In this document: in pieces, positions 9,193 to 21,581 of the stretch
Numbering within the stretch: position 1 is the first letter of the stretch
Layout of the letters: each line of letters opens with the position of its first letter
Virus record (IMG/VR): IMGVR_UViG_3300050501_000425
Strand: one strand, 5' to 3'
DNA from: a virus
Length of the DNA stretch: 53,102 nt
Notes under the pieces: model-generated
What the model was told of the DNA's origin: nothing
Database searches by the model: none
Seen by the model: only the letters and a program-made list of their open reading frames with translations
Program-made: the position numbers and the translations under genes

Positions 9193-9471
9193 CCATGTCA
9201 TGTCAACTCCTTTCCGGTGCCCATGGGAGAGCACCATGACACCGCGCCGTCGGGTCCTGGATCGCCAGGAAACGCTTTGTGTCATGGTGCTCATGGTGAA
9301 CGGCTTCGCTGCCGCTCAGCCCGAACATCAAGCTCGCTTCGCTCGCTTGATGAAGGCGCAGGTACGGCTCCCCGGTCCATGCCGCCCAGAGTGTCGAAGA
9401 AGCAACATGGTGGATCATGACCGTCCTTGCCCGACAAAGACAGAACTAGGAAAACGGGTTTGACGCCTTCG

Positions 9472-9543
9472 TGCCCTCGGCTGGGTTCGAACCAGCGTCC
9501 TCGCCGTGCTCTTGGCGCGCTCATCCCACTGAGCTACGGGGGC
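9472..9543 (-). ncRNA. tRNA-like RNA (72 nt) with a defective anticodon arm
   Basis: Minus sense: GCCCCCG UA GCUC AGUGGGAU GAGC ... GCUGG UUCGAAC CCAGC CGAGGGC A. D and T arms are canonical. The acceptor has one C.A mismatch. The anticodon arm is only a 4-bp stem (CGCC/GGCG) with loop AAGAGCAC and no U33. No CCA is encoded. Confidence 0.6.
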
Positions 9544-10426: not shown

Positions 10427-10558
10427 TTATGACTTGACCAGAAACGTTCCCCAGCCGAACAGGCCTGCGAACAACAGCACGACAAGCGCTTGTTTCGGTT
10501 TCTTCGCGACCAAGAGGGCTATTCCTATCAGGAGTAGCACCCCACTTAGGTATCCCAT
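10427..10558 (-). CDS. Small 2-TM membrane protein (43 aa)
   Basis: MGYLSGVLLLIGIALLVAKKPKQALVVLLFAGLFGWGTFLVKS. TAATG coupling to the vWA gene. Confidence 0.5.
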   Translation of the reverse strand: MGYLSGVLLLIGIALLVAKKPKQALVVLLFAGLFGWGTFLVKS

Positions 10559-11625
10559 TACTTGAGCACCAGCACCTTCGTGCCGACCACCAGGTGGCGG
10601 TTGACCGAGGTGGACTGGACGAAGATGGTGTACTTGTCGTTGAAGTCCGGCGCCACCGACTTGTCGCCGTCGGGCAGCCCGATCATCGCTCGGACCCCGT
10701 CGCCGACGAACACTTTGCTCGTGGCGATCTCCAAGATGGCCAGCTTCTTGTTGCCCTGGATGCGTTCTTTCTTGGACAGCTGGTAGAACACTGAGCCGAC
10801 GGTGAAGCTCCCGGTGGCATGGCGCACGAAGTCCGAGATCTCCCAGACCAGGTGCTTGTCCTTGTTCTCGACACCCTGCCCGCGATCCCGGCGCGGCCTG
10901 GTCACCGGCACCAACACGTAGGCGGAGCTGTCGAGCGGCTTGAGTCCGGCCGCCTTGATGGTGGCGGCATTGACCGCATCGGCGGCCGTGGAGAACAGGG
11001 TCCTGGTGCCGGTCTGGCCGGCGGAGCGCATCGCCATGTAGGTGTCCACGGAGGCGGCCATGGCGACACCGACCTCTTCGACGCCGGTGGCACTGTTGAC
11101 GTCCCAGATGGCGATGTTGCCCACGGGGAAGCCGAAGGACTGGGCGTAGTTCTTGCCGATCGCGTCGGGTACCAGGCAGGCCAGGGTCCACTCGGGGCCC
11201 AGGGATGCCAGCAGGCCCGGAAGGGCGATCTTGTTTTTGGTCCGGGACCTGTTCTCCTGGCCGTCGGTCAGGACGTAGATCAGGAAGCCATGGTCCCCGT
11301 ACTTGACCGGGGTCAACTTGAGGTCCTGTACTGCCAGGGTGGTGGCATCCACCAGCGCGGTCATCCCCGAGGTCTTCACCAGCCCGGCCAGCGACGGCAG
11401 ACGCAGCACGTCCTTGTCGTAGACGATGCAGACCACTTCGTGGTTGAACAGGTAGATGGTGACCCTGGTCTCCTGCTTCAAGTCCTGGCTCATCCTGGCC
11501 AGGTGGGCAACGAGCCCGTCGGTGACCGTGATTACCTGGGACTCCTTGCCCCTCATGGAGTCACTTATGTCGATGCAGAAGGCTACGTGGTTGATGATTC
11601 CCTGATCGATCATCCTACTTGTCAT
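10558..11625 (-). CDS. von Willebrand factor type A (vWA) domain protein
   Basis: MIDAS-type DISDSM near the N-terminus (VAFCIDISDSMRG) with typical alternating beta/alpha pattern. ATG 11625 is preceded by GAGAGGGGA. Confidence 0.7.
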   Translation of the reverse strand: MTSRMIDQGIINHVAFCIDISDSMRGKESQVITVTDGLVAHLARMSQDLKQETRVTIYLFNHEVVCIVYDKDVLRLPSLAGLVKTSGMTALVDATTLAVQDLKLTPVKYGDHGFLIYVLTDGQENRSRTKNKIALPGLLASLGPEWTLACLVPDAIGKNYAQSFGFPVGNIAIWDVNSATGVEEVGVAMAASVDTYMAMRSAGQTGTRTLFSTAADAVNAATIKAAGLKPLDSSAYVLVPVTRPRRDRGQGVENKDKHLVWEISDFVRHATGSFTVGSVFYQLSKKERIQGNKKLAILEIATSKVFVGDGVRAMIGLPDGDKSVAPDFNDKYTIFVQSTSVNRHLVVGTKVLVLK

Positions 11626-11642
11626 CGGTTTCCCCTCTCTCT

Positions 11643-11894
11643 TCAACTCTCGAACCAGATCCCCGTGATGTTTCCTTCAGGGCCTGTACACCACCAGGTG
11701 CTCCTGCCGCCCTCGTCACAGTACTGGTGATGCCGGTGGACGCTACCACCGGACGCCCTGCACGACTTGGCGTCGGCATGCTCACCGGCCGTCGGTGCCG
11801 GACTCTGGCAACCCGGCAGCAGCAAGGACAGCGTTATCCACAAAGACACGGCAAAGGCTGCCCACAGCACTATGGGAACGACTCTTTTGCGCAT
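11643..11894 (-). CDS. Putative lipoprotein (83 aa)
   Basis: Signal peptide plus lipobox: MRKRVVPIVLWAAFAVSLWITLSLLLPGC. Confidence 0.6.
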   Translation of the reverse strand: MRKRVVPIVLWAAFAVSLWITLSLLLPGCQSPAPTAGEHADAKSCRASGGSVHRHHQYCDEGGRSTWWCTGPEGNITGIWFES

Positions 11895-11998: not shown

Positions 11999-12197
11999 AG
12001 GACTTCTCCTCTTGTTTGATGCGTGCCGGTGGAACCGTGACAGGAAGCCCTTGATCCCTGTTGTCCCACGGGGCTAGCCCCACCGGCACGACTTTCATGA
12101 CTTCGGGGATGGACGTCACGTCCAGGGCGCCGTGGCCATAATGGATGCCCAGGTCTGGCTCACCTGGCGGACCGAACCTTTACGGTCGCACCCATCG

Positions 12198-12270
12198 CTG
12201 CCAGGGCAGGAGTCGAACCTGCTGCTTCCACACCGTCCCGGACTGCGCAGTCAAGCGGGACATCCTGGCA
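12198..12270 (-). ncRNA. tRNA-sized mimic (73 nt): acceptor plus T arm, with D and anticodon arms replaced by one long hairpin
   Basis: UGCCAGG ... GCAGG UUCGACU CCUGC CCUGGCA G has a perfect 7-bp acceptor and a canonical T arm. Positions 10-36 form GUCCCG-CUU-GACU-GCGC-AGUC-C-CGGGAC. It is followed by a degenerate copy of the GGUGCGA motif (about 12165-12195). Confidence 0.5.
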
Positions 12271-12509
12271 TTGCTCCGTGGTGAGTGTCTGGGCCTCGCC
12301 CAGATGCCCCGAGCCCAAAGCGGGAGCACCCCAAACCCCAGTCCAGGATCCTTGGCCTGGAGATTGCTTTACCACGGATCTTTGGTGAAGAGTCCTTATC
12401 CCATCATTGTCGGACGCTGCTTACGCCAGCCCGACTCCGGAATGATGTCGCGTACATCATCTCCAGTCCTAGAACGCGCGTATCTTCGGCTGTGACTTCG
12501 GACTCTCCG

Positions 12510-12593
12510 TGGGGAGGCAGGATTCGAACCTGCGCAAGGGCAACCACATCATTGTGGATTCGGTACCAACTCCTCATTACGCCTACGTCCCCT
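12510..12593 (-). ncRNA. Aberrant tRNA-like RNA
   Basis: Canonical T arm GCAGG UUCGAAU CCUGC. Acceptor is partial (5 of 7 bp). The anticodon-position hairpin CCAC-AAUGAU-GUGG has a 6-nt loop. I could not draw a clean D arm. Confidence 0.4.
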
Positions 12594-12725
12594 TGACTCG
12601 GTGGCACAGTGAACATCCAGGCGAAGCCCGTGATCCGTTGTCTGGATGCTGGATCCACTTAGTGCCACCGGTTTGTTACTAGCATCGGGGCTACGGTCTC
12701 GACCGCGCCGGGGCGCCGAGCTACG

Positions 12726-12798
12726 CTGACCCAGCAGGACTCGAACCTGCAACCTGATGATTAACAGCCACCTGCGCTGCCGATTGCGCCATGGGTCA
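12726..12798 (-). tRNA. tRNA-Asn (anticodon GUU)
   Basis: Full cloverleaf drawn by hand. Acceptor UGACCCA/UGGGUCA, U8, D arm GCGC-AAUCGGCA-GCGC, anticodon arm GGUGG-CUGUUAA-UCAUC, variable AGGUU, T arm GCAGG-UUCGAGU-CCUGC, discriminator G. No CCA is encoded. Confidence 0.85.
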
Positions 12799-13028
12799 AG
12801 ATGCCGGTGACAGCCCATGACCAAGACTGCCACCGGCGTACGACTGTTTCGGGGACCGCCAGTCGCCAGCGGTCTGTGAGCCCGGATAGGAACGGGCACC
12901 CCGGCGGGAGATGAGTCTTTGGTTGTGGCCATGCAGCTTTGCGTCCCCATGGCCACCATGGACGTCCCAGTCCAATGGGAGTCTTAGTGATTAAGCCTGC
13001 GAAGCAGGTCTGGGATGAACGAAGTGAA

Positions 13029-13172
13029 GACCTCAGAGTTCAAGGGCTGTCTCGGAAATGGGAGCGGACTCGAACCGCCAACCTTCCGGTCTCAACCGGA
13101 CGCTCTACCAATTGAGCTACCCCGATGAATTGTTGGTATCGGGAAGTATCCGAAACATTCGCACCTGAGATC
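13029..13172 (-). ncRNA. Y RNA-like module F (normal-order tRNA-like cloverleaf inside the conserved stem)
   Basis: GAUCUCA-GGUGCGA-AUGUUU-CGGAUACUUC ... GCUC-AAUUGGUA-GAGC G UCCGG-UUGAGAC-CCGGA AGGUU GGCGG-UUCGAGU-CCGCU ... CUUGAACUC-UGAGGUC. The closing stem is 7 bp with one G.U. Confidence 0.7.
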
Positions 13173-13630
13173 GTAGATCTTTGGGCTGGTTGGGTGCCAG
13201 AAGTTCTGACCAGCATCCTGGTCACTAAGTGAGATAAGGACCATCATTCTGGCCACTAAGTGCTTGGGTGGGGACGCCGGAACCTTTCCCTAGGGAGGTC
13301 CGTTCTCTTTTTCCATCTTCTACTAGCGCGCATGATGCGCCTGTTCCTTTGCGCCAGCACGTGTTCGTCAGGGGGCGACCGCCTGGGCGTCTGGCATCCC
13401 CACGTCTTTGTGCACCGTTTTTGGGCCACCTACGGTGCCAGAGGTGCCGTTGGCACGAGAGTACCGCCCGTCTTCACCGGCGAGGATGAAGTCTTTGGTG
13501 GACCACGGAAACCCGCAAGAGTCAGCCGCACGAAACGACTGCTTTTGTCTAACCCGTGGCCCTTTGCCGCCCCCCTATGAATGGGCAGCGTTCCCAATCG
13601 CATTGCCTTCTACAGCAATGAACTTTTTGT

Positions 13631-13781
13631 GATTGCAGAGTTCAAGATTGTCTCGGGCTTGTTCAAAAAGACCGCTGCTCGTACCAGCTGAGCTACAGAA
13701 GCCGATGGCCCCCAGGGGGACTTGAACCCCCGACCTGCGGTTTGTGAATTCGAAGTATCCGAAACTGTCGCACCTGCAATC
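13631..13781 (-). ncRNA. Y RNA-like module E (permuted tRNA-like domain)
   Basis: GAUUGCA-GGUGCGA-CAGUUU-CGGAUACUUC-GAAUUCACAA-ACCGC-AGGUC-GGGGG-UUCAAGU-CCCCC-UGGGGGC-CAUCG-GCUUCUG-UA-GCUC-AGCUGGUAC-GAGC-A-GCGGU-...-CUUGAACUC-UGCAAUC. The closing stem is a perfect 7 bp. The acceptor is loop-closed. Confidence 0.75.
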
Positions 13782-14141
13782 TGGATCCCGACCATCCGGC
13801 AGTCGGTGTCCAAGACCATGCCCCACGAGGGAACACGGTGGGTGATTCTTGCTCTGGCCACACCATTCGCCACCAGTCGCCGCGATTGGATAGGACCGGT
13901 GTGGCCAGAAGTCTTGGTGGATGCCCCCGGCATTCCTGAACGGGGGCATCCGTTTCCCCACCTGACAAGGAGGGAAGCTTGTGGGCGGGGGTGTCAGTAC
14001 TGAGCACTTTCGTGAGTCTGCTTCCAGGCGACCCCTGCGACATCGCACACCGAGGTGTGCGCGGCGACCGTGGCCATCCATGCCAGGTCTTTCACCTGGA
14101 CCCCCATTTCCAGCCGCCCTGTCAGGAGCCGGAAGTTTGTT

Positions 14142-14281
14142 GATTCCCGAGTTCAGGGGTGGCGCGGAAATTTTAGCGCTCTACCACTTGAGCTACAGCC
14201 CGAAGAGTCGGGCCGTCAGGATTCGAACCTGAAACCTCTCGTTCCCAAAACGAAGTAACCGTGCCGATCGCACCGGGAATC
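14142..14281 (-). ncRNA. Y RNA-like module D (permuted tRNA-like domain)
   Basis: GAUUCCC-GGUGCGA-UCGGCA-CGGUUACUUC-GU-UUUGG-GAACGAGAGGUU-UCAGG-UUCGAAU-CCUGA-CGGCCCG-ACUCUU-CGGGCUG-UA-GCUC-AAGUGGUA-GAGC-G-CUAAA-...-CUGAACUC-GGGAAUC. Both 7-bp stems are fully paired. Confidence 0.75.
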
Positions 14282-14335
14282 ACAGATTCCTTCGCGCATA
14301 AGGCGTAGCCGTTGCGTCGGGAATCAAAGCTTTGT

Positions 14336-14462
14336 GGTGTCGGAGTTCATGGTTGTCGCGGGGAGCCCCTAGCCATAGGGCAGTCATCACCACGGGGGTG
14401 ACGGGTGGATTCGAACCATCAATCGTTGTCACGAAGTAACCGCAACATTCGCACCCGACATC
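14336..14462 (-). ncRNA. Y RNA-like module C (permuted tRNA-like domain)
   Basis: GAUGUCG-GGUGCGA-AUGUUG-CGGUUACUUC-...-GAUGG-UUCGAAU-CCACC-CGUCACC-CCCGU-GGUGAUG-ACU-GCCC-UAUGGCUAG-GGGC-...-AUGAACUC-CGACACC. The closing stem is 6 of 7 bp. Confidence 0.7.
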
Positions 14463-14474
14463 AAAAGTTATTAT

Positions 14475-14580
14475 CTGCCACGAGTTCAGGGTTCATTCGG
14501 AATGGTGTTGCTTTCCGGGGTTCTCACATCCCGGGTATATCCACTGGTGAGAAGTATCCGAACAATTCGCACCGTGGCGC
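14475..14580 (-). ncRNA. Y RNA-like module B (no tRNA-like domain)
   Basis: GCGCCAC-GGUGCGA-AUUGUU-CGGAUACUUC ... CUGAACUC-GUGGCAG. The closing stem is only 5 bp. There is an internal hairpin CCGGG/CCCGG and no T-loop box. Confidence 0.55.
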
Positions 14581-14626
14581 GAAAGTCAATGTAGTTGTCA
14601 ACAAACAGCAGGGTCATGAGCGCCCG

Positions 14627-14718
14627 TGGAGCCCCCGGAGTTCAACATGGTCACGGGCTTATTCTTCGGTTCCGTGAAAGAGACAGATGAAGTAACCGTA
14701 ACCTTCGCACCCGGGGGC
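14627..14718 (-). ncRNA. Y RNA-like module A (no tRNA-like domain, 3' CCA encoded)
   Basis: GCCCCCG-GGUGCGA-AGGUUA-CGGUUACUUC ... UUGAACUC-CGGGGGC-U-CCA. The closing stem is 7-8 bp. Internal hairpin is CACGG/CCGUG. Confidence 0.6.
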
Positions 14719-14753
14719 GCCATGTCGCTCAGCTGCTTACGAAAGAAAGCATG

Positions 14754-14924
14754 TCATACGACGGACGTGATGTCAAGTCGGTTTTCTCCGTGCTGCGGGC
14801 AGGAGCACGGTGCCTTACACCACTTGCAGGTCTGGCGGCACAGCTTGTGCAGGTCGGGATCCTCGTGCTCATGCTGGCAGGCCGTGGATATGTAGATGTG
14901 CTTAGGGCCGGGGAGGGTCTTCAT
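14754..14924 (-). CDS. Small Cys/His-rich (zinc-binding type) protein (56 aa)
   Basis: My translation: MKTLPGPKHIYISTACQHEHEDPDLHKLCRQTCKWCKAPCSCPQHGENRLDITSVV. This is the last coding sequence before the RNA array. Confidence 0.6.
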   Translation of the reverse strand: MKTLPGPKHIYISTACQHEHEDPDLHKLCRQTCKWCKAPCSCPQHGENRLDITSVV

Positions 14925-15848: not shown

Positions 15849-15998
15849 TTACATTCTTTCGGGCATCTCCAGTGGCATCAGAAGGGCCGCCAGGATGCCC
15901 CCGGCACCGGCCAGCATCCAGGCCGGTCGTTGCACCAGCAAGCCCAGGCACAGGATCACGCCGCAGATGGCCAGCACCACGATCTTGAGTGAACTCAT
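15849..15998 (-). CDS. Small 2-TM membrane protein (49 aa)
   Basis: MSSLKIVVLAICGVILCLGLLVQRPAWMLAGAGGILAALLMPLEMPERM. ATGA-coupled to the Ro60 stop. Confidence 0.55.
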   Translation of the reverse strand: MSSLKIVVLAICGVILCLGLLVQRPAWMLAGAGGILAALLMPLEMPERM

Positions 15999-17566
15999 CA
16001 GAACGGCCACTGCCCGGCGGCACGGCGCTCCAGCACCGGCAGCAACTTGAACGCCTGGTCAGTCAACCCGCCGATGGTGATGCGGGTCGGGGTTCCCGAC
16101 TCCATGTGCCCCACCTTGTACCCGGCCAAGTTGAACGTGATCACCGGGATGTGGGCCGGGACTGCCGCTGCCACATCACGATAGGTGTGATAGTTGGCCT
16201 GCTCGTCGGTGAGGATGACCACCCGATCGTGCGCCCTGAAATTGGTGCTCACCGCCGCCTCGGTGGCCGTACCCCCGTTCTGGAAGTAGCCACGGCGGAA
16301 CGCCTCCAGCATCACCAGCAGCGATGCCCCCCTGGCCAGCGGGAACACCTTGGAGTAGTTGGAGTACGAGACCACGTCGGCGTGCTCACACCGCTGCGAA
16401 AGCGCCAGCCCGAAGATGGCCGCCGCGTCCCAGCGCCGCAGTCCGCTCTTGTCACTCATGCTGTCGGCCATCGAGCCCGAGGTGTCGATCAGGATCAGGG
16501 TGCGACCGGCGAACTGCGGGATGTTGTTCAGCGACGCCTGGAGCCCCTGCTCAAGTGGCAGGTGCCAGCGCACGTTGGACACAGCCCGGAAGGCCGACAA
16601 GAACCGCATCGGCAACTGACGGGATCGGGCCACTTGCTCCGGGTCACCGAGGCGATCAGCCACCAAGGCGTAGGCGTTGTGGCCCACCCCGGCCTCATCG
16701 AAGTTGCGCAGGTTGCGCAGCAGGGCCATGTAGCCCATGGTCGGGATAAGCGCCTCCCACAGATCCTTCTTCGGAATCTTGGAACCAACCAGGGACAGCA
16801 CGTCCTCCCACGTCATCCCGGCAGCCCGAAGGGTTCCGGGGTCCAGGAACATGTGCTGCCCGTAGTCCTTGGCGGCTGCGTCACGAAGGAAGGCATTCTT
16901 GTGGATCATGGTCAGTGACGACGGGATGCCCTCGCGGCCGTGGCGCCGGTCGATCAGATGCTTGAACAGCACATCCTGGCCCAGCTTGTCCGGGGACGCA
17001 TGGGTCAGCTCAAGCACATCACCGAAGCGGACACCATGAGACGCCGTGTCGTACTTGAGGGTGTTGTACTCGTTGTAAAGACGCGTCGCGGCATCAGCGA
17101 TCCCGCGCTTGATCGGCTTGGGAATCTGCTGGCCTGGATAGGCAGCCTTCCAGTAGCCGATCGCCTCACCGGGCTCGTCGGCACGTGCCAGCACCGAGTT
17201 GACGATCCGACGGCCACCAGGAAGGTTGGACTTCACCATGGCGCAGGCGGCCTCGATCGCGCCCACCAGGGAGGCGGTGCGCATGTTGGCCTCGCCGCGA
17301 AGCCACGGTAGGAAGCGCCCCATCCATTCGGGATCGGTGCGGGCCACCTCGTGAACCAGCGTCTTGAAGCGGGCGTCACGGGCAACCCCGGTCTCATAGA
17401 AGGTGTCCATGCCGACGAAGTTGCTCACCGCCAGCAGGAACAGCTCACCCTTGGCGTCACGGGTGAACCCGGGCGCCCGGTTTCCGGTACGCGCCAACGG
17501 GTCCGGGGTGGACACGATGGGCTGATTGATCGGGAAGCCCTTGTTGGGCTTGTTGAAACGGCTCAT
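15998..17566 (-). CDS. rsr: Ro60-related protein (TROVE domain plus C-terminal vWA domain)
   Basis: 522 aa. The HEAT-like TROVE region has MGYMALLRNLRNF and RQLPMRFLSAFRAV. The C-terminal vWA has MIDAS LILIDTSGSMAD. RBS is GAGAGGAA. Confidence 0.85.
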   Translation of the reverse strand: MSRFNKPNKGFPINQPIVSTPDPLARTGNRAPGFTRDAKGELFLLAVSNFVGMDTFYETGVARDARFKTLVHEVARTDPEWMGRFLPWLRGEANMRTASLVGAIEAACAMVKSNLPGGRRIVNSVLARADEPGEAIGYWKAAYPGQQIPKPIKRGIADAATRLYNEYNTLKYDTASHGVRFGDVLELTHASPDKLGQDVLFKHLIDRRHGREGIPSSLTMIHKNAFLRDAAAKDYGQHMFLDPGTLRAAGMTWEDVLSLVGSKIPKKDLWEALIPTMGYMALLRNLRNFDEAGVGHNAYALVADRLGDPEQVARSRQLPMRFLSAFRAVSNVRWHLPLEQGLQASLNNIPQFAGRTLILIDTSGSMADSMSDKSGLRRWDAAAIFGLALSQRCEHADVVSYSNYSKVFPLARGASLLVMLEAFRRGYFQNGGTATEAAVSTNFRAHDRVVILTDEQANYHTYRDVAAAVPAHIPVITFNLAGYKVGHMESGTPTRITIGGLTDQAFKLLPVLERRAAGQWPF

Positions 17567-18325: not shown

Positions 18326-19189
18326 TCATTCAACCACAAATACCCCCTGCCCCTGACGGCCTTCGACCACGCCGGTGGCCTTGAGGATCAGGATGGCTGA
18401 GCGTACGGATCCGTAGCTGGCCTCGAACTCTTCTCGCAGGGCGCTGGTGCTGGGAAGTTTGCCGTCGGGATAGGCGCCGGAGGCGATCCGCTCGCGCAAG
18501 GTGTCCACGATGATCAGATACTTGAAGTCCGTCATAGGCAACACAGTAGACCATGGTGCTAATGTGAGCACATGGGGCTCGATCGGACCGAGAAGATCTT
18601 CACTTTCGGGCCACCCTCTCTCCAGCCTCCCAAGAAGGGTGCGATAGGAAACATGACACCTATGATCCCTTGACCATTGCGCAACTGTTTTCTTCTCACC
18701 ATTTATCGTTACCCAGCGATTGGTGGTCTTGTTGTTCATGTTTTCACTGCGCGTAACCCAGCGACAATTCTGTGGCCCATAGTTGCCCGTAGTGTCTATT
18801 CGGTCAATCTGTAGACCATCGACGAATCCGTTGGCTAGTGCCCATTTCCTGAATTCCTCAAAGCTCTCTCGCCATTGGCGGATGACCTTTATGCCTCGGG
18901 CGCCGTAATATTTATATGCGCTGCTTGAGGGGGTGTGGCATCTTCCTTTCATGCTTGCCCATGCCTTATACAGGGGAGACCAGCGCCCATTGGCGGCATC
19001 CCCATGCTTCCTTTGTCTCATGGCCGCGAGATCCCGCTGTAGGCAGCCACAGGACTTACTCTTCCCGGACCTGAGCGCATGTCGGGCTACCGCGCGTCTT
19101 GTGCCACAGACGCATATGCATTCCGAGTGGCGTGGCCTTCCCGTGGCTAGTCCCACCACGGTCCATCGGCCAAATTCGGAAGCGACCAT
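18326..19189 (-). CDS. Nuclease-associated/HNH-type DNA-binding module fused in frame to a GntR-type winged HTH
   Basis: YKAWASMKGRCHTPSSSAYKYYGARGIKV...LQIDRIDTTGNYGPQNCRWVTRSENMNNKT, followed without a stop by MTDFKYLIIVDTLRERIASGAYPDGKLPSTSALREEFEASYGSVRSAILILKATGVV (GntR HTH). ATG 19189 was chosen as the start. Confidence 0.6.
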   Translation of the reverse strand: MVASEFGRWTVVGLATGRPRHSECICVCGTRRAVARHALRSGKSKSCGCLQRDLAAMRQRKHGDAANGRWSPLYKAWASMKGRCHTPSSSAYKYYGARGIKVIRQWRESFEEFRKWALANGFVDGLQIDRIDTTGNYGPQNCRWVTRSENMNNKTTNRWVTINGEKKTVAQWSRDHRCHVSYRTLLGRLERGWPESEDLLGPIEPHVLTLAPWSTVLPMTDFKYLIIVDTLRERIASGAYPDGKLPSTSALREEFEASYGSVRSAILILKATGVVEGRQGQGVFVVE

Positions 19190-19259
19190 GGGCGAAGTAT
19201 ACAAGCAGTAAATTGCATCGTAGACTATGACATCTAGGATGGGGATGGTCAGGTTGGGC

Positions 19260-21581
19260 ATGTCGCTGAAGCAGCGGGTTGCGGCGATGCCCCGTGCCCA
19301 GAGGATGGACTTCCTGCAGTCCCTGGACCCCGCCATCCTGGACATGATCGCCAGGGAGGAATGGTTCTGGGTGGCCCGCCCGGAACAGATGCCGCCCAAG
19401 GGCGACTGGTCCATCTGCCTGATGCTGGCGGGCCGGGGCTTCGGCAAGACGCGCTCGGGGGCCGAGTGGATCGTGCAACGGACCCTGGATCATCCCTATG
19501 ACTCCTCTGGGTTTCCCACCGAACGCCTGATCATGGCCTACAACATTTCTGACGCCGTGGCCTCATGCGCCGAGGGTCCCTCGGGGGTGCTGCGGGTGTT
19601 GCAGCGCATGGGATTTTCCGAGCTGGGAAAGTCCCGCCGGGTCGATGACCCCACCAAGATGTACACCTTCACCAAAAGCCCCAAGCCTTATGTGCGCTTG
19701 CTCGAGACCGGCTCGGTCATCCACTTCACCGGCGCCACAGTGGACGCGGCCCGGTCCAAGAACCTGGCCGATGTCTGGTGCGTGGCCGAAGGTGAGCCAG
19801 TCCTGACCGAGCGCGGCATGGTGGCCATAGAGCGGGTGCTCCCGGGTGACAGAGTTTGGACGCAGACGGGATTCAAGGAGGTTCTGCAATCCGGGCGTAC
19901 CGCTGAGGGCAGGGAGGTCTTGCGGATTGTCACCACCGAGGGGGAGCTTCGAGTAACCCCGGACCATGTGGTGTGGGCCAATGGCGGCTGGATCCGGGCC
20001 GACCGGCTTGAGGCTGGCGATAGTATGGCTACATGTCTGCCTCAAATGGACCTGTGCCCAGCGAAGAGCCAGCCTATCAGCGATGGGACAGGGAGTCCTG
20101 GTTCTTCAACAAGCGCAAGGGATACTACTACAGCCGAGACGGGTTCCTTCTCCACCGAGCCGTCTGGATCGCTTTGCACGGACCGATTCCCGAGGGATTC
20201 GATGTCCATCACCGGGATGGGAAACGGTGGAATTGCGACCCAGCAAACCTTGAGCTATTGCCTCATGGAGAGCACATGCGTCTCACGTGGCAGCTGCGTA
20301 CCGACGCCGACAAATATGACAGCTCCGGCCGGTCCCAGCGGTCCAGTGAGGGATTGCGGCGCATGTGGGCCAACCGGCAGCCCCGGGCAGTCCTTTGTGC
20401 CGAGTGTGGCAATGAGTACCTGTCCACCGGAATGCGGGCCAAATGGTGCTCGGACGCATGCCGGAAAGCGGGATCGGCCAGGCTTTCGCGGAACAAGCGT
20501 GCTCAGCGTAATCAGGGAACACCGGCGAGCTGATGTCTACGATTTGACGATCGCCGATGCCCATCATTTCTTCGCGGGGTCGGCGCTTGTCAAGATCCAC
20601 AACTGCGACGAGCCCATAAAATGGGCCAATCCCGAGGAAACCTGGCGCGAGGGCATCCGACCGGCACTTCGGGCCGACATCCCCGGGGACAAACCCAGGG
20701 CGCTGGTGACCACCACCCCCAAACCGATCCTGTTGCTCAAGAACTGGGTGTCCGAACCCCGGCGGTGGAAGGTCGTCATCATCCGGGGCAGCACCTTCGA
20801 CAACATGATCAACCTGTCTGAGGATGCCGTCGAGGAGCTGCGGGAAACCTATGAGGGCACCGCCCTGGGCCGCCAGGAGCTGTACGGCGAGCTTCTCGAT
20901 GATGTGTCCGGCGCCCTGTTCAGCTTCTCCGTCATCCATGCCAACCGGGTGGAGATCGGCCCGGAGAAGGTGGCCCACCGCACCGTCGGGGTGGATCCCG
21001 GCCTGACCGGTGATGAGGACGGCGACGAGATGGGTGTCATCGTGGCCTGCCGGGACCACAAGGACCATGCCTATGTGATCGCCGATGAGACCACGAAGCT
21101 GGCCGGACGCGATGCGGCACTGCATGCCTGGCATGTCTATGCCCGCTATGGCGCCGACACCCTGGTCTATGAGTCCAACCTGGGCAAGGCCTGGATGCAC
21201 CAGGTGTTCACCGACGCCTTCAGGGAACTTCAGCGCTCCGGCTTATTCCCCACTGAAGTCATCAACCCTCCGCTCGTGCCCGTCTTTTCAAATCAGGGGA
21301 AAAAGCTGCGGGCTGAGCCCGTGGCCATGCGCTATTCGCAGGGGCGAGTGCATCACATCGGCACCTTCGACAAGCTCGAGACCCAGATGCTCACCTTCGA
21401 TCCTTTGTCGTCCAAGGCGTCCCCGGACCGCCTGGATGCCCTCGTCCATGCGGTCCGGCATCTGATGGATGGTGAGCGCAAGCGCTCCCGGATCCTGTCG
21501 CCTTTGGGTCTGCCGGTACCCGAACTCGGCTACAACCCGGTGGGCACCATGCGGACCATGGGTGAATTCGGGATCGGATGA
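19260..21581 (+). CDS. terL: Terminase large subunit, interrupted by an intein
   Basis: N-terminus ...EEWFWVARPEQ..., Walker A LAGRGFGKT, Walker B region ADVW|CDE restored after intein removal. The C-terminal nuclease region has GVDPG...DEMG. ATG 19260 is preferred within ORF 19227..21581. Confidence 0.85.
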   Translation: MSLKQRVAAMPRAQRMDFLQSLDPAILDMIAREEWFWVARPEQMPPKGDWSICLMLAGRGFGKTRSGAEWIVQRTLDHPYDSSGFPTERLIMAYNISDAVASCAEGPSGVLRVLQRMGFSELGKSRRVDDPTKMYTFTKSPKPYVRLLETGSVIHFTGATVDAARSKNLADVWCVAEGEPVLTERGMVAIERVLPGDRVWTQTGFKEVLQSGRTAEGREVLRIVTTEGELRVTPDHVVWANGGWIRADRLEAGDSMATCLPQMDLCPAKSQPISDGTGSPGSSTSARDTTTAETGSFSTEPSGSLCTDRFPRDSMSITGMGNGGIATQQTLSYCLMESTCVSRGSCVPTPTNMTAPAGPSGPVRDCGACGPTGSPGQSFVPSVAMSTCPPECGPNGARTHAGKRDRPGFRGTSVLSVIREHRRADVYDLTIADAHHFFAGSALVKIHNCDEPIKWANPEETWREGIRPALRADIPGDKPRALVTTTPKPILLLKNWVSEPRRWKVVIIRGSTFDNMINLSEDAVEELRETYEGTALGRQELYGELLDDVSGALFSFSVIHANRVEIGPEKVAHRTVGVDPGLTGDEDGDEMGVIVACRDHKDHAYVIADETTKLAGRDAALHAWHVYARYGADTLVYESNLGKAWMHQVFTDAFRELQRSGLFPTEVINPPLVPVFSNQGKKLRAEPVAMRYSQGRVHHIGTFDKLETQMLTFDPLSSKASPDRLDALVHAVRHLMDGERKRSRILSPLGLPVPELGYNPVGTMRTMGEFGIG
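19779..20603 (+). mobile_element. Intein (275 codons) in the TerL Walker B region
   Basis: Starts CVAEGEPVLT, contains TPDHVVW, and ends ALVKIHN followed by +1 Cys (CDEPIKW). Confidence 0.8.
20033..20533 (+). CDS. HNH homing endonuclease ORF nested out of frame inside the intein
   Basis: +2 frame relative to terL. Contains AVWIALHGPIPEGFDVHHRDGKRWNCDPANLELLPHGEHMRL plus CAECG...CSDAC. Confidence 0.75.
   Translation: MSASNGPVPSEEPAYQRWDRESWFFNKRKGYYYSRDGFLLHRAVWIALHGPIPEGFDVHHRDGKRWNCDPANLELLPHGEHMRLTWQLRTDADKYDSSGRSQRSSEGLRRMWANRQPRAVLCAECGNEYLSTGMRAKWCSDACRKAGSARLSRNKRAQRNQGTPAS

What the first reader, a model, noticed from the sequence alone, without database searches (positions are those of the whole stretch)
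13029..14718. Six-member RNA family: invariant bipartite motif closed by covarying 7-bp stems
On the minus strand, six units have this layout: stem5'(7 nt), GGUGCGA, N6, CGGWUACUUC, a variable insert of 45-95 nt, NUGAACUC, then stem3'(7 nt). The closing stems differ in sequence but stay complementary. They are GCCCCCG/CGGGGGC, GAUUCCC/GGGAAUC, GAUUGCA/UGCAAUC, GAUCUCA/UGAGGUC (one G.U), GAUGUCG/CGACACC (one A.C), and GCGCCAC/GUGGCAG (5 bp). Invariant single-strand or bulged motifs combined with compensatory stems are the signature of a structured RNA with a protein-binding site. As I recall, the conserved Ro-binding helix of animal Y RNAs is 5' ...GGUCCGA... paired with 3' ...CUUGAC... That is one substitution and one insertion away from GGUGCGA / UUGAAC here. 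A CGG in the 5' motif can also pair with a conserved CCG located 8-12 nt before the 3' motif.
Basis: partly seen in the sequence, partly recalled or inferred. Interest (0 to 1): 0.9.

Follow-up and report, generated by a model that had tools for sequence, protein, structure and literature searches.

The report
Phage Y RNA array beside Ro60
The six repeated units are real structured RNA genes: a tandem array of Y RNAs (small RNAs that bind the Ro60 protein, several carrying tRNA-like domains) encoded just downstream of this phage's own Ro60 gene, which is a known kind of system in an unusually expanded form.

Summary
Exactly six units lie on the minus strand (13029-14718). Each has a 7-nt closing stem, GGUGCGA-N6-CGGWUACUUC, a variable insert and UGAACUC; chance predicts 0.02 such motif matches.

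A Ro60 ortholog (TROVE + vWA, 15998-17566) lies 1.3 kb upstream on the same strand. The same 5' motif occurs in 28 IMG/VR contigs; 20 of them carry a Ro gene on the same strand as the units.

Across 47 distinct units the closing stem covaries at 7 of 7 pairs. A second helix (N6CGG/CCGN6) also covaries. The conserved helix GGUGCGA/UUGAACUC resembles the metazoan Ro-binding GGUCCGA helix.

The inserts fall into several classes:
- D and E carry the YrlA tRNA-like domain (T arm, capped acceptor, D arm). They score 36.6 and 35 bits against Rfam YrlA, below the curated cut-off of 69, as do all actinobacterial and actinophage relatives tested.
- C has only a T arm.
- A and B are rods or hairpins, as described for YrlB.
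- F encloses a D/anticodon/T tRNA-like core with a 6-nt anticodon loop, a topology described for Deinococcus Yrn1.

Verdict: a new member of the known bacterial/phage Y RNA kind. It is notable for having six copies and mixed architectures.

The parts
15998..17566 (-). Ro60 ortholog (522 aa; TROVE ring domain plus vWA domain), the presumed protein partner of the six RNAs
   Evidence: Pfam TROVE E 6.1e-19 and VWA_2 E 3e-4. 44% identical to proteins annotated 'Ro-like RNA binding protein' in Streptomyces, Gordonia and Arthrobacter phages. Best solved-structure match is Thermus phage phiLo Ro60, 9KOP/9L5Y, E 6.7e-22.
14748..14776 (-). Promoter-like element ahead of unit A: TTGACA, 17 nt, CATGCT (inferred)
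   Evidence: Read. The block GACTTG.C.T..CGT.C.T.GT.TG.CATGCTTTC is conserved at the same place in the related contig L017 (about 1655-1695). The strict sigma-70 scan did not flag it, because the -10 hexamer matches only 3 of 6.
14631..14718 (-). Unit A, 88 nt: Y RNA of the rod or long-hairpin type, with a pyrimidine-rich apical loop CUCUUUC and no tRNA-like element
   Evidence: z -3.65. An independent covariance model gives 49.4 bits, E 9.5e-10, end to end.
14475..14580 (-). Unit B, 106 nt: Y RNA without a tRNA-like element; 5-bp closing stem
   Evidence: Independent covariance model: 29.4 bits, E 5.5e-5, end to end.
14336..14462 (-). Unit C, 127 nt: Y RNA whose insert holds a T-arm-like hairpin (GGUUCGAAUCC) and two further hairpins, with no D arm
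   Evidence: The T-loop repeat family is D2. Homologous unit in L017 at 2524-2653.
14142..14281 (-). Unit D, 140 nt: YrlA-type Y RNA with, in order, T arm, capped acceptor-like stem-loop and D arm. The tRNA-like core is 14166-14245.
   Evidence: Rfam YrlA RF02553: 36.6 bits, E 1e-5, with high posterior probability over the T and D arms. Homolog in L017 at 2033-2176.
13631..13781 (-). Unit E, 151 nt: YrlA-type Y RNA (T arm, acceptor-like stem-loop, D arm). The Rfam match covers 13647-13765.
   Evidence: Rfam YrlA: 35.0 bits, E 3e-5, covering model positions 1-114. Fold.
13029..13172 (-). Unit F, 144 nt: Y RNA stem enclosing, in order, a capped acceptor-like hairpin (CCCGAU/AUCGGG, loop ACCAACAAUUC), D arm, anticodon-like arm (5 bp, 6-nt loop UUGAGA), variable region and T arm. 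The tRNA-like core is 13054-13127.
   Evidence: ARAGORN reports 'tRNA-???' with a two-base anticodon. Rfam tRNA 45.2 bits. Fold (z -2.64). The homologs in L017 (2375-2517) and L021 keep the hairpin through compensatory changes (CCUGUC/GACAGG and AAUUC/GAAUU).
13782..14141 (-). Spacer between D and E: a chain of near-perfect hairpins separated by ACCAAGACUUC-like spacers. Possibly further small RNAs of the same precursor (uncertain).
   Evidence: Minimum free energy -172 kcal/mol, z -4.33, 0 of 100 shuffles as stable. No homolog found in L017 and no Rfam match.

Best explanation
The six units are genes for phage-encoded Y RNAs, the small non-coding RNAs that bind the ring-shaped Ro60 protein. 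They form a tandem array on the same strand as the phage's Ro60 gene and 1.3-3.0 kb downstream of it.

Each RNA has a common Ro-docking module built from its 5' and 3' ends:
- a 7-bp closing stem whose sequence is free to vary;
- a conserved, imperfect helix, 5'-GGUGCGA paired with UUGAACUC-3' (G-C, bulged U, G-C, U-A, G.A, C-G, G.U, A-U), the counterpart of the metazoan GGUCCGA/UUGAC Ro-binding helix;
- a second covarying helix, N6CGG with CCGN6;
- the invariant junction WUACUUC.

Beyond that each RNA carries a different effector module:
- A and B: rod or hairpin.
- C: T arm only.
- D and E: the YrlA-type tRNA mimic.
- F: a tRNA-like core in D/anticodon/T order.

Inferred mechanism:
- The array is transcribed from a promoter just upstream of unit A as one precursor, and cut at the A/C-rich ...ACAACUUC-like spacers.
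- Each RNA docks on the outer surface of Ro60 through the 5' strand of the conserved helix.
- Its effector module tethers a different partner to Ro60, such as host PNPase or tRNA-recognising enzymes. This would redirect Ro-dependent RNA surveillance or decay during infection.

The sequence, structure, covariation, linkage to Ro60 and tRNA mimicry are shown here computationally. Transcription, processing, Ro binding and the partners are inferred from the characterised systems in Deinococcus, Salmonella, Mycobacterium smegmatis and Thermus phage phiLo.
For: - Six exact copies of the bipartite motif, all on the minus strand, against 0.02 expected. Each has a 3' motif and a complementary stem.
- A Ro60 ortholog on the same strand, 1.3 kb upstream. 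This meets the Chen 2014 criterion of lying within 4 kb of Ro60 on the same strand.
- The exact 5' motif occurs in 28 IMG/VR contigs. Twenty of them carry a Ro homolog in the DNA held, always on the same strand as the units. It also occurs next to Ro in Krasilnikovia and Lentzea chromosomes.
- In 47 distinct units all 7 pairs of the closing stem show double changes. 92% of its cells are paired. Across the 13 pairs tested (closing stem plus conserved helix) 124 cells carry a double change, against 36 +/- 6 in shuffles, and the signal collapses when the partner is slid by 1-3 columns.
- RNAalifold, run on 17 natural short units from other contigs, independently predicts the same closing stem and the G-C, G-C, C-G, G.U pairs of the conserved helix.
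- The second helix pairs 4.31 of its 6 variable positions with the cognate partner, against 2.90 with permuted partners; 0 of 5000 permutations reach the observed value.
- Units D and E match Rfam YrlA at E 1e-5 and 3e-5. Clear relatives score in the same range: Krasilnikovia 44.4 bits, Gordonia phage Neville 44.1 bits, other contigs 31-45 bits.
- A model trained without any window sequence recovers units A and B end to end.
[quoted passage not shown] Thermus phage phiLo Ro60 binds two adjacent Y-like RNAs and forms a complex with host PNPase.
Against: - No experiment or expression data exist for this phage. Ro binding is inferred.
- No unit reaches the Rfam YrlA gathering score of 69 bits. 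Units A, B, C and F have no YrlA match at all.
- The published 5' motif GNCGAAN0-1G is matched only loosely. The sequence here is GGUGCGAA; units D and E read CGAU and CGAC.
- Here the array lies downstream of Ro60, separated from it by several small ORFs. In most other loci the units abut the 5' end of the Ro gene.
- The promoter is not a canonical sigma-70 match.
- The 3' motif differs between loci (UGAACUC here, UGAUCUC in most), and the U-A pair of the conserved helix is present in only 9 of 47 units. The exact pairing register of that helix is therefore uncertain.
Confidence: 0.85

Rival explanations
1. The units are expression and processing cassettes for tRNA-like RNAs. The conserved stem would be a ribonuclease processing signal (RNase III, RNase E or RNase P context) that releases tRNA-like fragments or tRNA decoys. 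These would act independently of Ro60, for example as decoys for host anticodon nucleases or as substrates of tRNA enzymes.
For: - The array sits in the phage's tRNA region, with tRNA-Asn at 12725-12798. Relatives place Ro inside large tRNA arrays.
- The core of unit F scores 45 bits as tRNA. Its homolog in L017 is called tRNA-Phe(GAA) at 61.7 bits.
- M. smegmatis YrlA is cleaved by RNase P and receives CCA in vivo.
- A recurrent spacer motif separates the units.
Against: - Units A and B have no tRNA-like part yet keep the whole conserved module.
- The module tracks Ro genes across contigs and resembles the Ro contact sequence.
- Unit F has a 6-nt anticodon loop. Only 4 of 7 acceptor pairs can form between its 5' and 3' strands, so it is not a usable tRNA.
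- Processing and Ro binding are not mutually exclusive, so this is more an added function than an alternative.
Confidence: 0.08
2. The repeats act at the DNA level, as protein-binding sites, recombination or attachment sites, or remnants of a small mobile element. Their apparent RNA structure would be incidental.
For: They are direct repeats of 30 nt at irregular spacing in a 2.9-kb non-coding region. No transcription data are available.
Against: - All six copies and all relatives share one orientation relative to Ro.
- The 7-mers flanking the motifs differ between copies but stay complementary, which DNA sites have no reason to do.
- G.U wobbles would be A.C mismatches on the other strand. 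There are 13 in the closing stem, and the conserved helix has a G.U in 42 of 47 units.
- The inserts hold oriented T-arm and D-arm modules.
Confidence: 0.02
3. The units are structured RNAs of the Y RNA shape that serve a partner other than the adjacent Ro60, for example the downstream vWA protein at 10558-11646 or a host protein.
For: A second vWA-domain protein is conserved downstream in both the window and L017. The invariant junction WUACUUC is unexplained by the known Ro contacts.
Against: The second vWA gene was not examined in most other loci that carry the module, whereas Ro is the constant neighbour. The conserved helix matches the Ro contact motif.
Confidence: 0.05

Closest known systems
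Mycobacterium smegmatis YrlA and YrlB (Chen et al. 2014, RNA 20:1715, PMC4201824) and the YrlA-like RNAs that paper reports in 22 phages, including mycobacteriophage ET08
   Same: - Encoded within 4 kb of the Ro60 gene on the same strand, with several Y RNAs per locus that are probably cut from one precursor.
- One type carries a T arm, capped acceptor stem and D arm tRNA mimic (units D and E). Another has only a T arm (unit C, like M. smegmatis YrlB).
- A CGAA-containing 5' motif and a YUAY junction are present (UUAC/AUAC here).
- The M. smegmatis YrlA 5' probe given in the paper corresponds to UUACCACUUCUAAUGGAAUGGUC. This closely matches the unit L023_616, which carries the same GGUGCGA...CGGUUACUUC motif as the window.
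   Different: - Six units rather than two, lying downstream rather than upstream of Ro.
- Both strands of the Ro-binding helix are conserved here. The paper says only the 5' strand is recognisable in the M. smegmatis and Salmonella RNAs.
- Rfam YrlA scores are only 35-37 bits against a cut-off of 69.
- I could not obtain the M. smegmatis or ET08 sequences for direct alignment.
Deinococcus radiodurans Yrn1 and Yrn2
   Same: - Yrn1 is described as having its tRNA-like arms in D/anticodon/T order, with a 5-bp 'anticodon' stem and a 6-nt loop. Unit F has exactly this layout: UCCGG, UUGAGA, CCGGA.
- Both strands of the Ro-binding helix are retained, as in metazoa.
[quoted passage not shown]
   Different: - Unit F has a full D arm, a variable region and a loop-capped acceptor-like hairpin. 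Yrn1 is said to lack a full D arm and a V arm.
- Yrn1 and YrlA were described as separate lineages, yet here both topologies share one Ro-binding module in one array.
Thermus phage phiLo Ro60 with Yrl1 and Yrl2 (NAR 2025, PMC12135203; PDB 9KOP, 9L5Y)
   Same: A phage-encoded Ro60 with adjacent Y-like RNAs that have a 5'/3' stem and a CGAA motif. That Ro60 is the closest solved structure to the window's Ro60. The phiLo Ro60, its Y-like RNAs and host PNPase form a ternary complex.
   Different: Two RNAs, upstream of Ro, with no tRNA-like domain reported. The host lineage is different. Protein similarity is limited to part of the TROVE domain (residues 26-208).
Metazoan Y RNAs (hY1, hY3, hY4, hY5; Xenopus Y RNAs)
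   Same: The 5' and 3' ends pair into a long stem that contains a conserved, imperfect helix. GGUCCGA is the strand contacted by Ro60, and GGUGCGA differs from it by one base. A variable effector loop and small paralog families (four in human) are also shared.
   Different: - A G.A mismatch replaces the bulged C, and the 3' strand carries an extra bulged U.
- There is no oligo-U/La tail.
- The inserts are tRNA-like.
- The metazoan 3' strand sequence UUGAC is recalled from general knowledge and was not checked with a tool here.

Membership tests
Y RNA (Ro60-associated non-coding RNA, broad sense) | Bound and stabilised by Ro60 | not testable with these tools
   Needs immunoprecipitation or EMSA. 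Only genomic linkage is available.
Y RNA (Ro60-associated non-coding RNA, broad sense) | In bacteria and phages: encoded close to the Ro60 gene (within about 4 kb) on the same strand | tested here: met
   Ro60 lies at 15998-17566 (-) and the units at 13029-14718 (-), 1.3-3.0 kb away. Twenty of 28 motif-bearing viral loci have Ro on the same strand as the units.
Y RNA (Ro60-associated non-coding RNA, broad sense) | The 5' and 3' ends pair into a stem containing a conserved helix related to GGUCCGA | tested here: met
   GGUGCGA is invariant. The closing stem covaries at 7 of 7 pairs. RNAalifold and minimum-energy folds agree. The reference motif is quoted.
YrlA (Rfam RF02553) | Score at or above the curated gathering threshold (69 bits) | tested here: not met
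   D scores 36.6 bits and E 35.0 bits. A, B, C and F have no match with E up to 10. The YrlA-type units checked at the E-value threshold in six related loci also score only 31-45 bits, and no YrlA match reached the cut-off in any of 17 loci. The cut-off therefore excludes this whole branch.
YrlA (as defined by Chen et al. 2014) | tRNA-like domain in the order T arm, acceptor-like stem-loop, D arm | tested here: met
   Met for units D and E only. The alignment to the Rfam consensus has high posterior probability over the T and D arms. It is not met for A and B (none), C (T arm only) or F (reverse order).
YrlA (as defined by Chen et al. 2014) | GNCGAAN0-1G motif near the 5' end | tested here: inconclusive
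   A, C and F read GGUGCGAA(U)G. CGAAN0-1G fits, but U stands where the motif has G. B reads CGAAUUG, D reads CGAUCG and E reads CGACAG.
tRNA | Cloverleaf with a 7-nt anticodon loop and an acceptor stem formed by the 5' and 3' ends (considered for the core of unit F) | tested here: not met
   Rfam tRNA gives 45.2 bits, above its cut-off of 29, but covers only model positions 5-66. ARAGORN gives a two-base 'anticodon' because the loop has 6 nt. Only 4 of 7 acceptor pairs are possible; instead the 5' strand pairs with upstream sequence in a 7-bp hairpin.
Yrn1-type Y RNA (Deinococcus) | tRNA-like arms in D/anticodon/T order, with a 5-bp anticodon-like stem and a 6-nt loop | tested here: met
   Unit F has D arm GCUC...GAGC, then UCCGG-UUGAGA-CCGGA, then T arm GGCGG-UUCGAGU-CCGCU. 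The comparison rests on the paper's description. Sequence homology to Yrn1 was not tested.

The most novel reading that the evidence does not exclude
The array may be a combinatorial adaptor set: one Ro60-docking module fused to at least four different effector modules in a single 53-kb phage. One of these (unit F, seen in only three IMG/VR contigs) would be a Y RNA class not yet described. In it a nearly complete tRNA core (D arm, anticodon arm, variable region, T arm) with a loop-capped acceptor stem is joined to the Ro stem at the T/acceptor junction. That makes it a circular permutation of the YrlA design. YrlA-type and Yrn1-type topologies sit on the same docking module here, and both strands of the Ro helix are conserved. 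Together these would argue that the two 'separate lineages' of bacterial Y RNAs arise by repeated grafting of tRNA parts onto a common, metazoan-like Ro-binding stem. The extra hairpin RNAs in the spacers could be further members of the same processed precursor.
Probability: 0.3. Interest if true: 0.55.

Novelty: new member of a known kind. Interest (0 to 1): 0.38.

Why it matters
Y RNAs gate and retarget Ro60, an RNA-surveillance protein conserved from bacteria to humans, where it is a lupus and Sjogren autoantigen.

- **An experimental handle.** This small phage encodes its own Ro60 plus six Y RNAs that share one docking module but differ in their effector modules. Such a compact natural set could be used to ask what each module recruits and why phages carry this system among their tRNA genes.
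- **The binding helix.** The data show that both strands of a metazoan-like Ro-binding helix are conserved in the actinobacterial and actinophage branch.
- **The Rfam threshold.** The curated YrlA cut-off misses this whole branch.
- **Annotation errors.** Pipelines mislabel these RNAs as tRNAs or as tiny protein-coding genes, for example in Gordonia phages VanLee and Neville.

The kind of system itself is already known, so the advance is incremental.

Tried and rejected
- **Close phage relatives.** Megablast of the region against 50,697 GenBank phages found no relative, only a 52-nt tRNA match.
- **Loci by Ro peptide patterns.** The search for related loci with the Ro protein returned only one locus, because it relies on exact peptide words. 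The DNA motif scan was far more productive.
- **Bacterial genomes.** The genome-contig scan had to use a looser pattern, GGTGCGAA-N3-10-CGGWTAC. Only Krasilnikovia, Lentzea and Acrocarpospora carried real units; Nocardia niwae showed a Ro hit but no unit was detected. The M. smegmatis locus was not recovered, so there is no direct alignment to the experimentally validated YrlA.
- **Rfam at gathering threshold.** It finds only tRNA in the window, and tRNA plus one glycine riboswitch in 17 related loci.
- **A known mycobacteriophage YrlA.** A search with a YrlA-type unit found only Gordonia phages.
- **Promoter.** The strict sigma-70 scan found nothing. The proposed promoter rests on conservation with L017 only.
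- **Unit F as a real tRNA.** Considered and rejected: 6-nt anticodon loop and unpaired acceptor.
- **DNA-level repeats.** Considered and rejected: strand-specific wobble pairs and covariation.
- **Side lead.** The 16-mer ASGGATCAMGGGCTTC, from a second hairpin family, gave 44 viral loci, almost all coding or chance.
- **Other copies of the unit F type.** The pattern scan gave 5 loci, of which only L017 and L021 are real.
- **Model reach.** The short-unit covariance model cannot span the long inserts. Units C to F are detected only through their 5' halves, at 12-19 bits.
Full report

Yes. The bipartite pattern GGTGCGA-N6-CGGWTACTTC occurs exactly six times in the 53,102-bp window. All six are on the minus strand between 13143 and 14711. 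Dinucleotide-preserving shuffles predict 0.02 matches.

Each copy is followed, 44-107 nt after CUUC, by a single TGAACTC.

The unit limits on the minus strand are:
- A: 14718-14631
- B: 14580-14475
- C: 14462-14336
- D: 14281-14142
- E: 13781-13631
- F: 13172-13029

The one correction concerns the variable insert, which is 43-106 nt rather than 45-95. All six minimum-energy folds close with the 7-bp stem, with z-scores from -1.4 to -3.7.

**2. Context**

The window is a phage genome of about 62% G+C. It encodes a terminase, portal, major head protein, tape measure, tail protein and DNA polymerase/primase.

On the same strand, 1.3 kb upstream of unit A, lies a 522-aa protein with a TROVE domain (E 6e-19) and a vWA domain. 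This is a Ro60 ortholog. It is about 44% identical to proteins annotated 'Ro-like RNA binding protein' in Streptomyces, Gordonia and Arthrobacter phages. Its best match among solved structures is the Ro60 of Thermus phage phiLo.

From about 14750 down to about 12000 there is no convincing coding sequence. The stretch holds the six units, a tRNA-Asn (12725-12798) and other structured elements. No close relative exists among GenBank phages. The identical Ro protein is found only on metagenome contigs.

**3. Comparative evidence**

The exact 5' motif occurs in 28 IMG/VR contigs. Twenty of them encode a Ro homolog within the DNA held, always on the same strand as the units. Four of the remaining eight are evident chance hits in coding sequence. 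The module also sits next to Ro in the actinobacterial chromosomes of Krasilnikovia and Lentzea.

I collected 47 distinct units with the same layout. Their 3' motif is usually UUGAUCUC; UGAACUC is the variant of this window and a few others.

*Closing stem.* All 7 pairs show changes on both sides, and 92% of its cells are paired. Across the 13 pairs tested (closing stem plus conserved helix) 124 cells carry a double change, against 36 +/- 6 after shuffling. Pairing collapses to 28-52% when partners are slid by 1-3 columns.

*Independent predictions.*
- RNAalifold, run on 17 natural short units from other contigs, predicts the same closing stem plus the pairs G-C, G-C, C-G and G.U within GGUGCGA/UGAUCUC.
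- A covariance model built from those 17 units, with no window sequence, recovers units A (49.4 bits) and B (29.4 bits) end to end. The 5' parts of E, C, D and F rank third, fifth, sixth and seventh, with one unrelated hit between them.

Its six variable positions pair 4.31 of 6 with the cognate partner, against 2.90 of 6 with permuted partners; 0 of 5000 permutations reach the observed value.

*Strand.* The G.U in the conserved helix (42 of 47 units) and 13 wobble cells in the closing stem fit only the minus-strand transcript. This excludes a DNA site that works on both strands.

**4. Anatomy**

Every unit shares the same docking module, from the outside inwards:
- a closing stem of 7 bp;
- the conserved imperfect helix, 5'-GGUGCGA with UUGAACUC-3' (G-C, bulged U, G-C, U-A, G.A, C-G, G.U, A-U in this window);
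- 2-3 unpaired nucleotides on the 3' side;
- the second helix of 7-9 bp;
- the invariant junction WUACUUC.

The inserts differ between units.
- **Unit A** continues as a rod ending in a pyrimidine-rich loop, CUCUUUC.
- **Unit B** has simple hairpins.
- **Unit C** has a T-arm-like hairpin (GGUUCGAAUCC) and no D arm.
- **Units D and E** have a T arm, a capped acceptor-like stem-loop and a D arm. They match Rfam YrlA at 36.6 and 35.0 bits (E 1e-5 and 3e-5).
- **Unit F** runs the other way. It starts with a 7-bp hairpin whose 3' strand takes the place of the acceptor 5' strand. A D arm follows, then a 5-bp anticodon-like stem with a 6-nt loop (UUGAGA), a variable region and a T arm.

The hairpin of unit F is kept through compensatory changes in the only two other examples found: CCCGAU/AUCGGG here, CCUGUC/GACAGG in L017 and AAUUC/GAAUU in L021. 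All three share the loop sequence CCAA(C/A)AAU. In L017 the homologous core has a 7-nt loop, and ARAGORN calls it tRNA-Phe(GAA).

**5. What it is**

These features are those of bacterial and phage Y RNAs. Chen et al. 2014 (PMC4201824) make the following points:
- YrlA-like RNAs occur within 4 kb of Ro60, on the same strand, in 254 bacteria and 22 phages, including mycobacteriophages.
- M. smegmatis YrlA and YrlB are cut from one precursor, and YrlB has only a T arm.
- Deinococcus Yrn1 has its arms in the opposite order, with a 5-bp, 6-nt-loop 'anticodon arm'.
- GGUCCGA is the strand contacted by Xenopus Ro60.

GGUGCGA differs from that contact sequence by one base. The M. smegmatis YrlA 5' probe in that paper corresponds to UUACCACUUCUAAUGGAAUGGUC. 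It closely matches a metagenomic unit (L023) that carries the same 5' motif as the window. Thermus phage phiLo Ro60 binds two adjacent Y-like RNAs and assembles with host PNPase.

**6. Membership, stated carefully**

In the broad Y RNA sense, the two testable features are met: linkage to Ro60, and a terminal stem with a conserved Ro-type helix. Ro binding itself is untestable here.

For Rfam YrlA the curated threshold of 69 bits is not met by any unit. The YrlA-type relatives checked at the E-value threshold do not meet it either. Krasilnikovia scores 44.4 bits, Gordonia phage Neville 44.1 bits and other contigs 31-45 bits, and no YrlA match reached the cut-off in any of 17 loci. The threshold therefore excludes the whole actinobacterial and actinophage branch, not this window in particular.

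Only D and E have the YrlA-type tRNA-like domain. The published GNCGAAN0-1G motif is matched loosely. The core of unit F passes the Rfam tRNA score, but it fails the 7-nt loop and acceptor-stem criteria, so it is not a functional tRNA.

**7. How it probably works**

Shown here by computation: sequence, structure, covariation, Ro linkage and tRNA mimicry.

Inferred:
- *Transcription.* It would start at a conserved promoter-like block (TTGACA, 17 nt, CATGCT at 14776-14748). This block is also present in L017 but is not a strict sigma-70 match.
- *Processing.* A polycistronic precursor would be cut at recurrent A/C-rich spacers of the type ACAACUUCA or ACCAAAGACUUC.
- *Docking.* Each RNA would bind Ro60 through the 5' strand of the conserved helix.
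- *Recruitment.* The variable modules would recruit different partners, such as PNPase or tRNA-recognising enzymes.

**8. What is unusual**

- *Copy number.* Typical loci in my sample have one short unit of 70-90 nt plus one YrlA-type unit of 130-147 nt. Some have three or four. Only this window and its relative L017 have six.
- *Mixed topologies.* YrlA-type and Yrn1-type topologies co-occur on one docking module.
- *Both strands conserved.* Both strands of the Ro helix are conserved, whereas Chen et al. state that only the 5' strand is recognisable in the Salmonella and M. smegmatis RNAs.
- *Position.* The array lies downstream of Ro rather than abutting its 5' end.

These are variations within a known kind, not a new kind.

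**9. Rivals**

- A tRNA-like processing or decoy cassette independent of Ro is possible as an added function. It does not explain units A and B or the linkage to Ro.
- DNA-level repeats are excluded by strand-specific wobble pairs and covariation.
- A different protein partner, such as the conserved downstream vWA protein, cannot be excluded without binding assays.

**10. Verdict**

It is a new, expanded member of the known bacterial and phage Y RNA/Ro60 system. Interest is moderate, mainly as a compact natural set of Ro adaptors and for the rare unit F architecture.

Noticed in passing
window 12588-12676 (-) and 12020-12090 (-); L017 3812-3900 and 4430-4500: A second small RNA-like family: long hairpins whose apical part carries the conserved ASGGAUCAMGGGCUUC. 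There are two copies in the window and two in the related contig L017, with compensatory changes in the stems (7 of 15 predicted pairs). The 12020-12090 copy ends just before a ribosome-binding site and the ATG of a small membrane-protein ORF. No Rfam match. A viral-contig scan of the 16-mer gave almost only chance hits; L152 may share the hairpin.
   Followed up: partly
window 13782-14141 (-): The 360-nt spacer between units D and E folds into a chain of near-perfect hairpins, for example GGAUGCCCCCG...CGGGGGCAUCC and UGGCCACACC...GGUGUGGCCA. Its z-score is -4.33, with 0 of 100 shuffles as stable. It has no homolog in L017 and no Rfam match. By contrast the E-F spacer (13173-13630) is not unusually stable, z -0.92.
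   Followed up: partly
window minus strand, after units B to E (e.g. 14474-14463, 14335-14326, 14141-14131, 13630-13620) and at 13911-13922, 13488-13499, 12912-12923: A recurrent A/C-rich spacer motif, ACAACUUCA / ACAAAGCUU / ACCAAAGACUUC. It follows Y units when another unit comes next, in this window and in many other loci, and it also separates the non-Y hairpins. It may be a ribonuclease processing site of a polycistronic precursor.
   Followed up: partly
L151 (Gordonia phage Neville NC_060131) 3512-3960; Gordonia phage VanLee NC_073474 65475-65558: Published phage annotations miss these RNAs. Neville has four Y-like units (GAUGCGA variant; Rfam YrlA 44 bits at L151 3754-3870) directly upstream of its Ro gene. 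The three upstream ones lie under tiny 'hypothetical protein' CDSs gp088-gp090; the fourth lies between gp090 and the Ro gene. VanLee's 'tRNA-Arg' gene 125, just 5' of its Ro gene, matches a YrlA-type unit.
   Followed up: partly
window 12509-12576 (-) and about 12215-12235 (-); 9471-9543 (-): Further tRNA-like pieces lie downstream of the array. One is a weak tRNA-like element with a GGUUCGAAUCC T arm (17 bits). Another is an isolated T-arm-like hairpin followed by GGGUGCGACC. The third ARAGORN calls 'tRNA-???' with a two-base anticodon, although it scores 45 bits as tRNA.
   Followed up: no
window 10558-11646 (-) and 18326-19447 (-): A second vWA-domain protein (362 aa) lies downstream of the RNA region and is conserved in L017. 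An ORF with a C-terminal GntR-type DNA-binding domain lies upstream of Ro60.
   Followed up: no
window 12859-12895 and 13863-13899; 13208-13231 and 13239-13262: More repeats inside the spacers. One is a 37-nt element (..UCCUAUCC..GGCGACUGG..) present in the D-E spacer and again between unit F and tRNA-Asn. The other is a tandem pair of 24-nt CACUUAGUG(A/G)CCAG..UGGUC hairpins just upstream of unit F.
   Followed up: no
short units of other loci (e.g. L005 2307-2384, L011 6628-6703, L016 432-505, L013 8187-8267): Many of the 70-80 nt short Y units of other contigs share an apical loop resembling UGGUGAAAUCAC. Units A and B of this window lack it.
   Followed up: no
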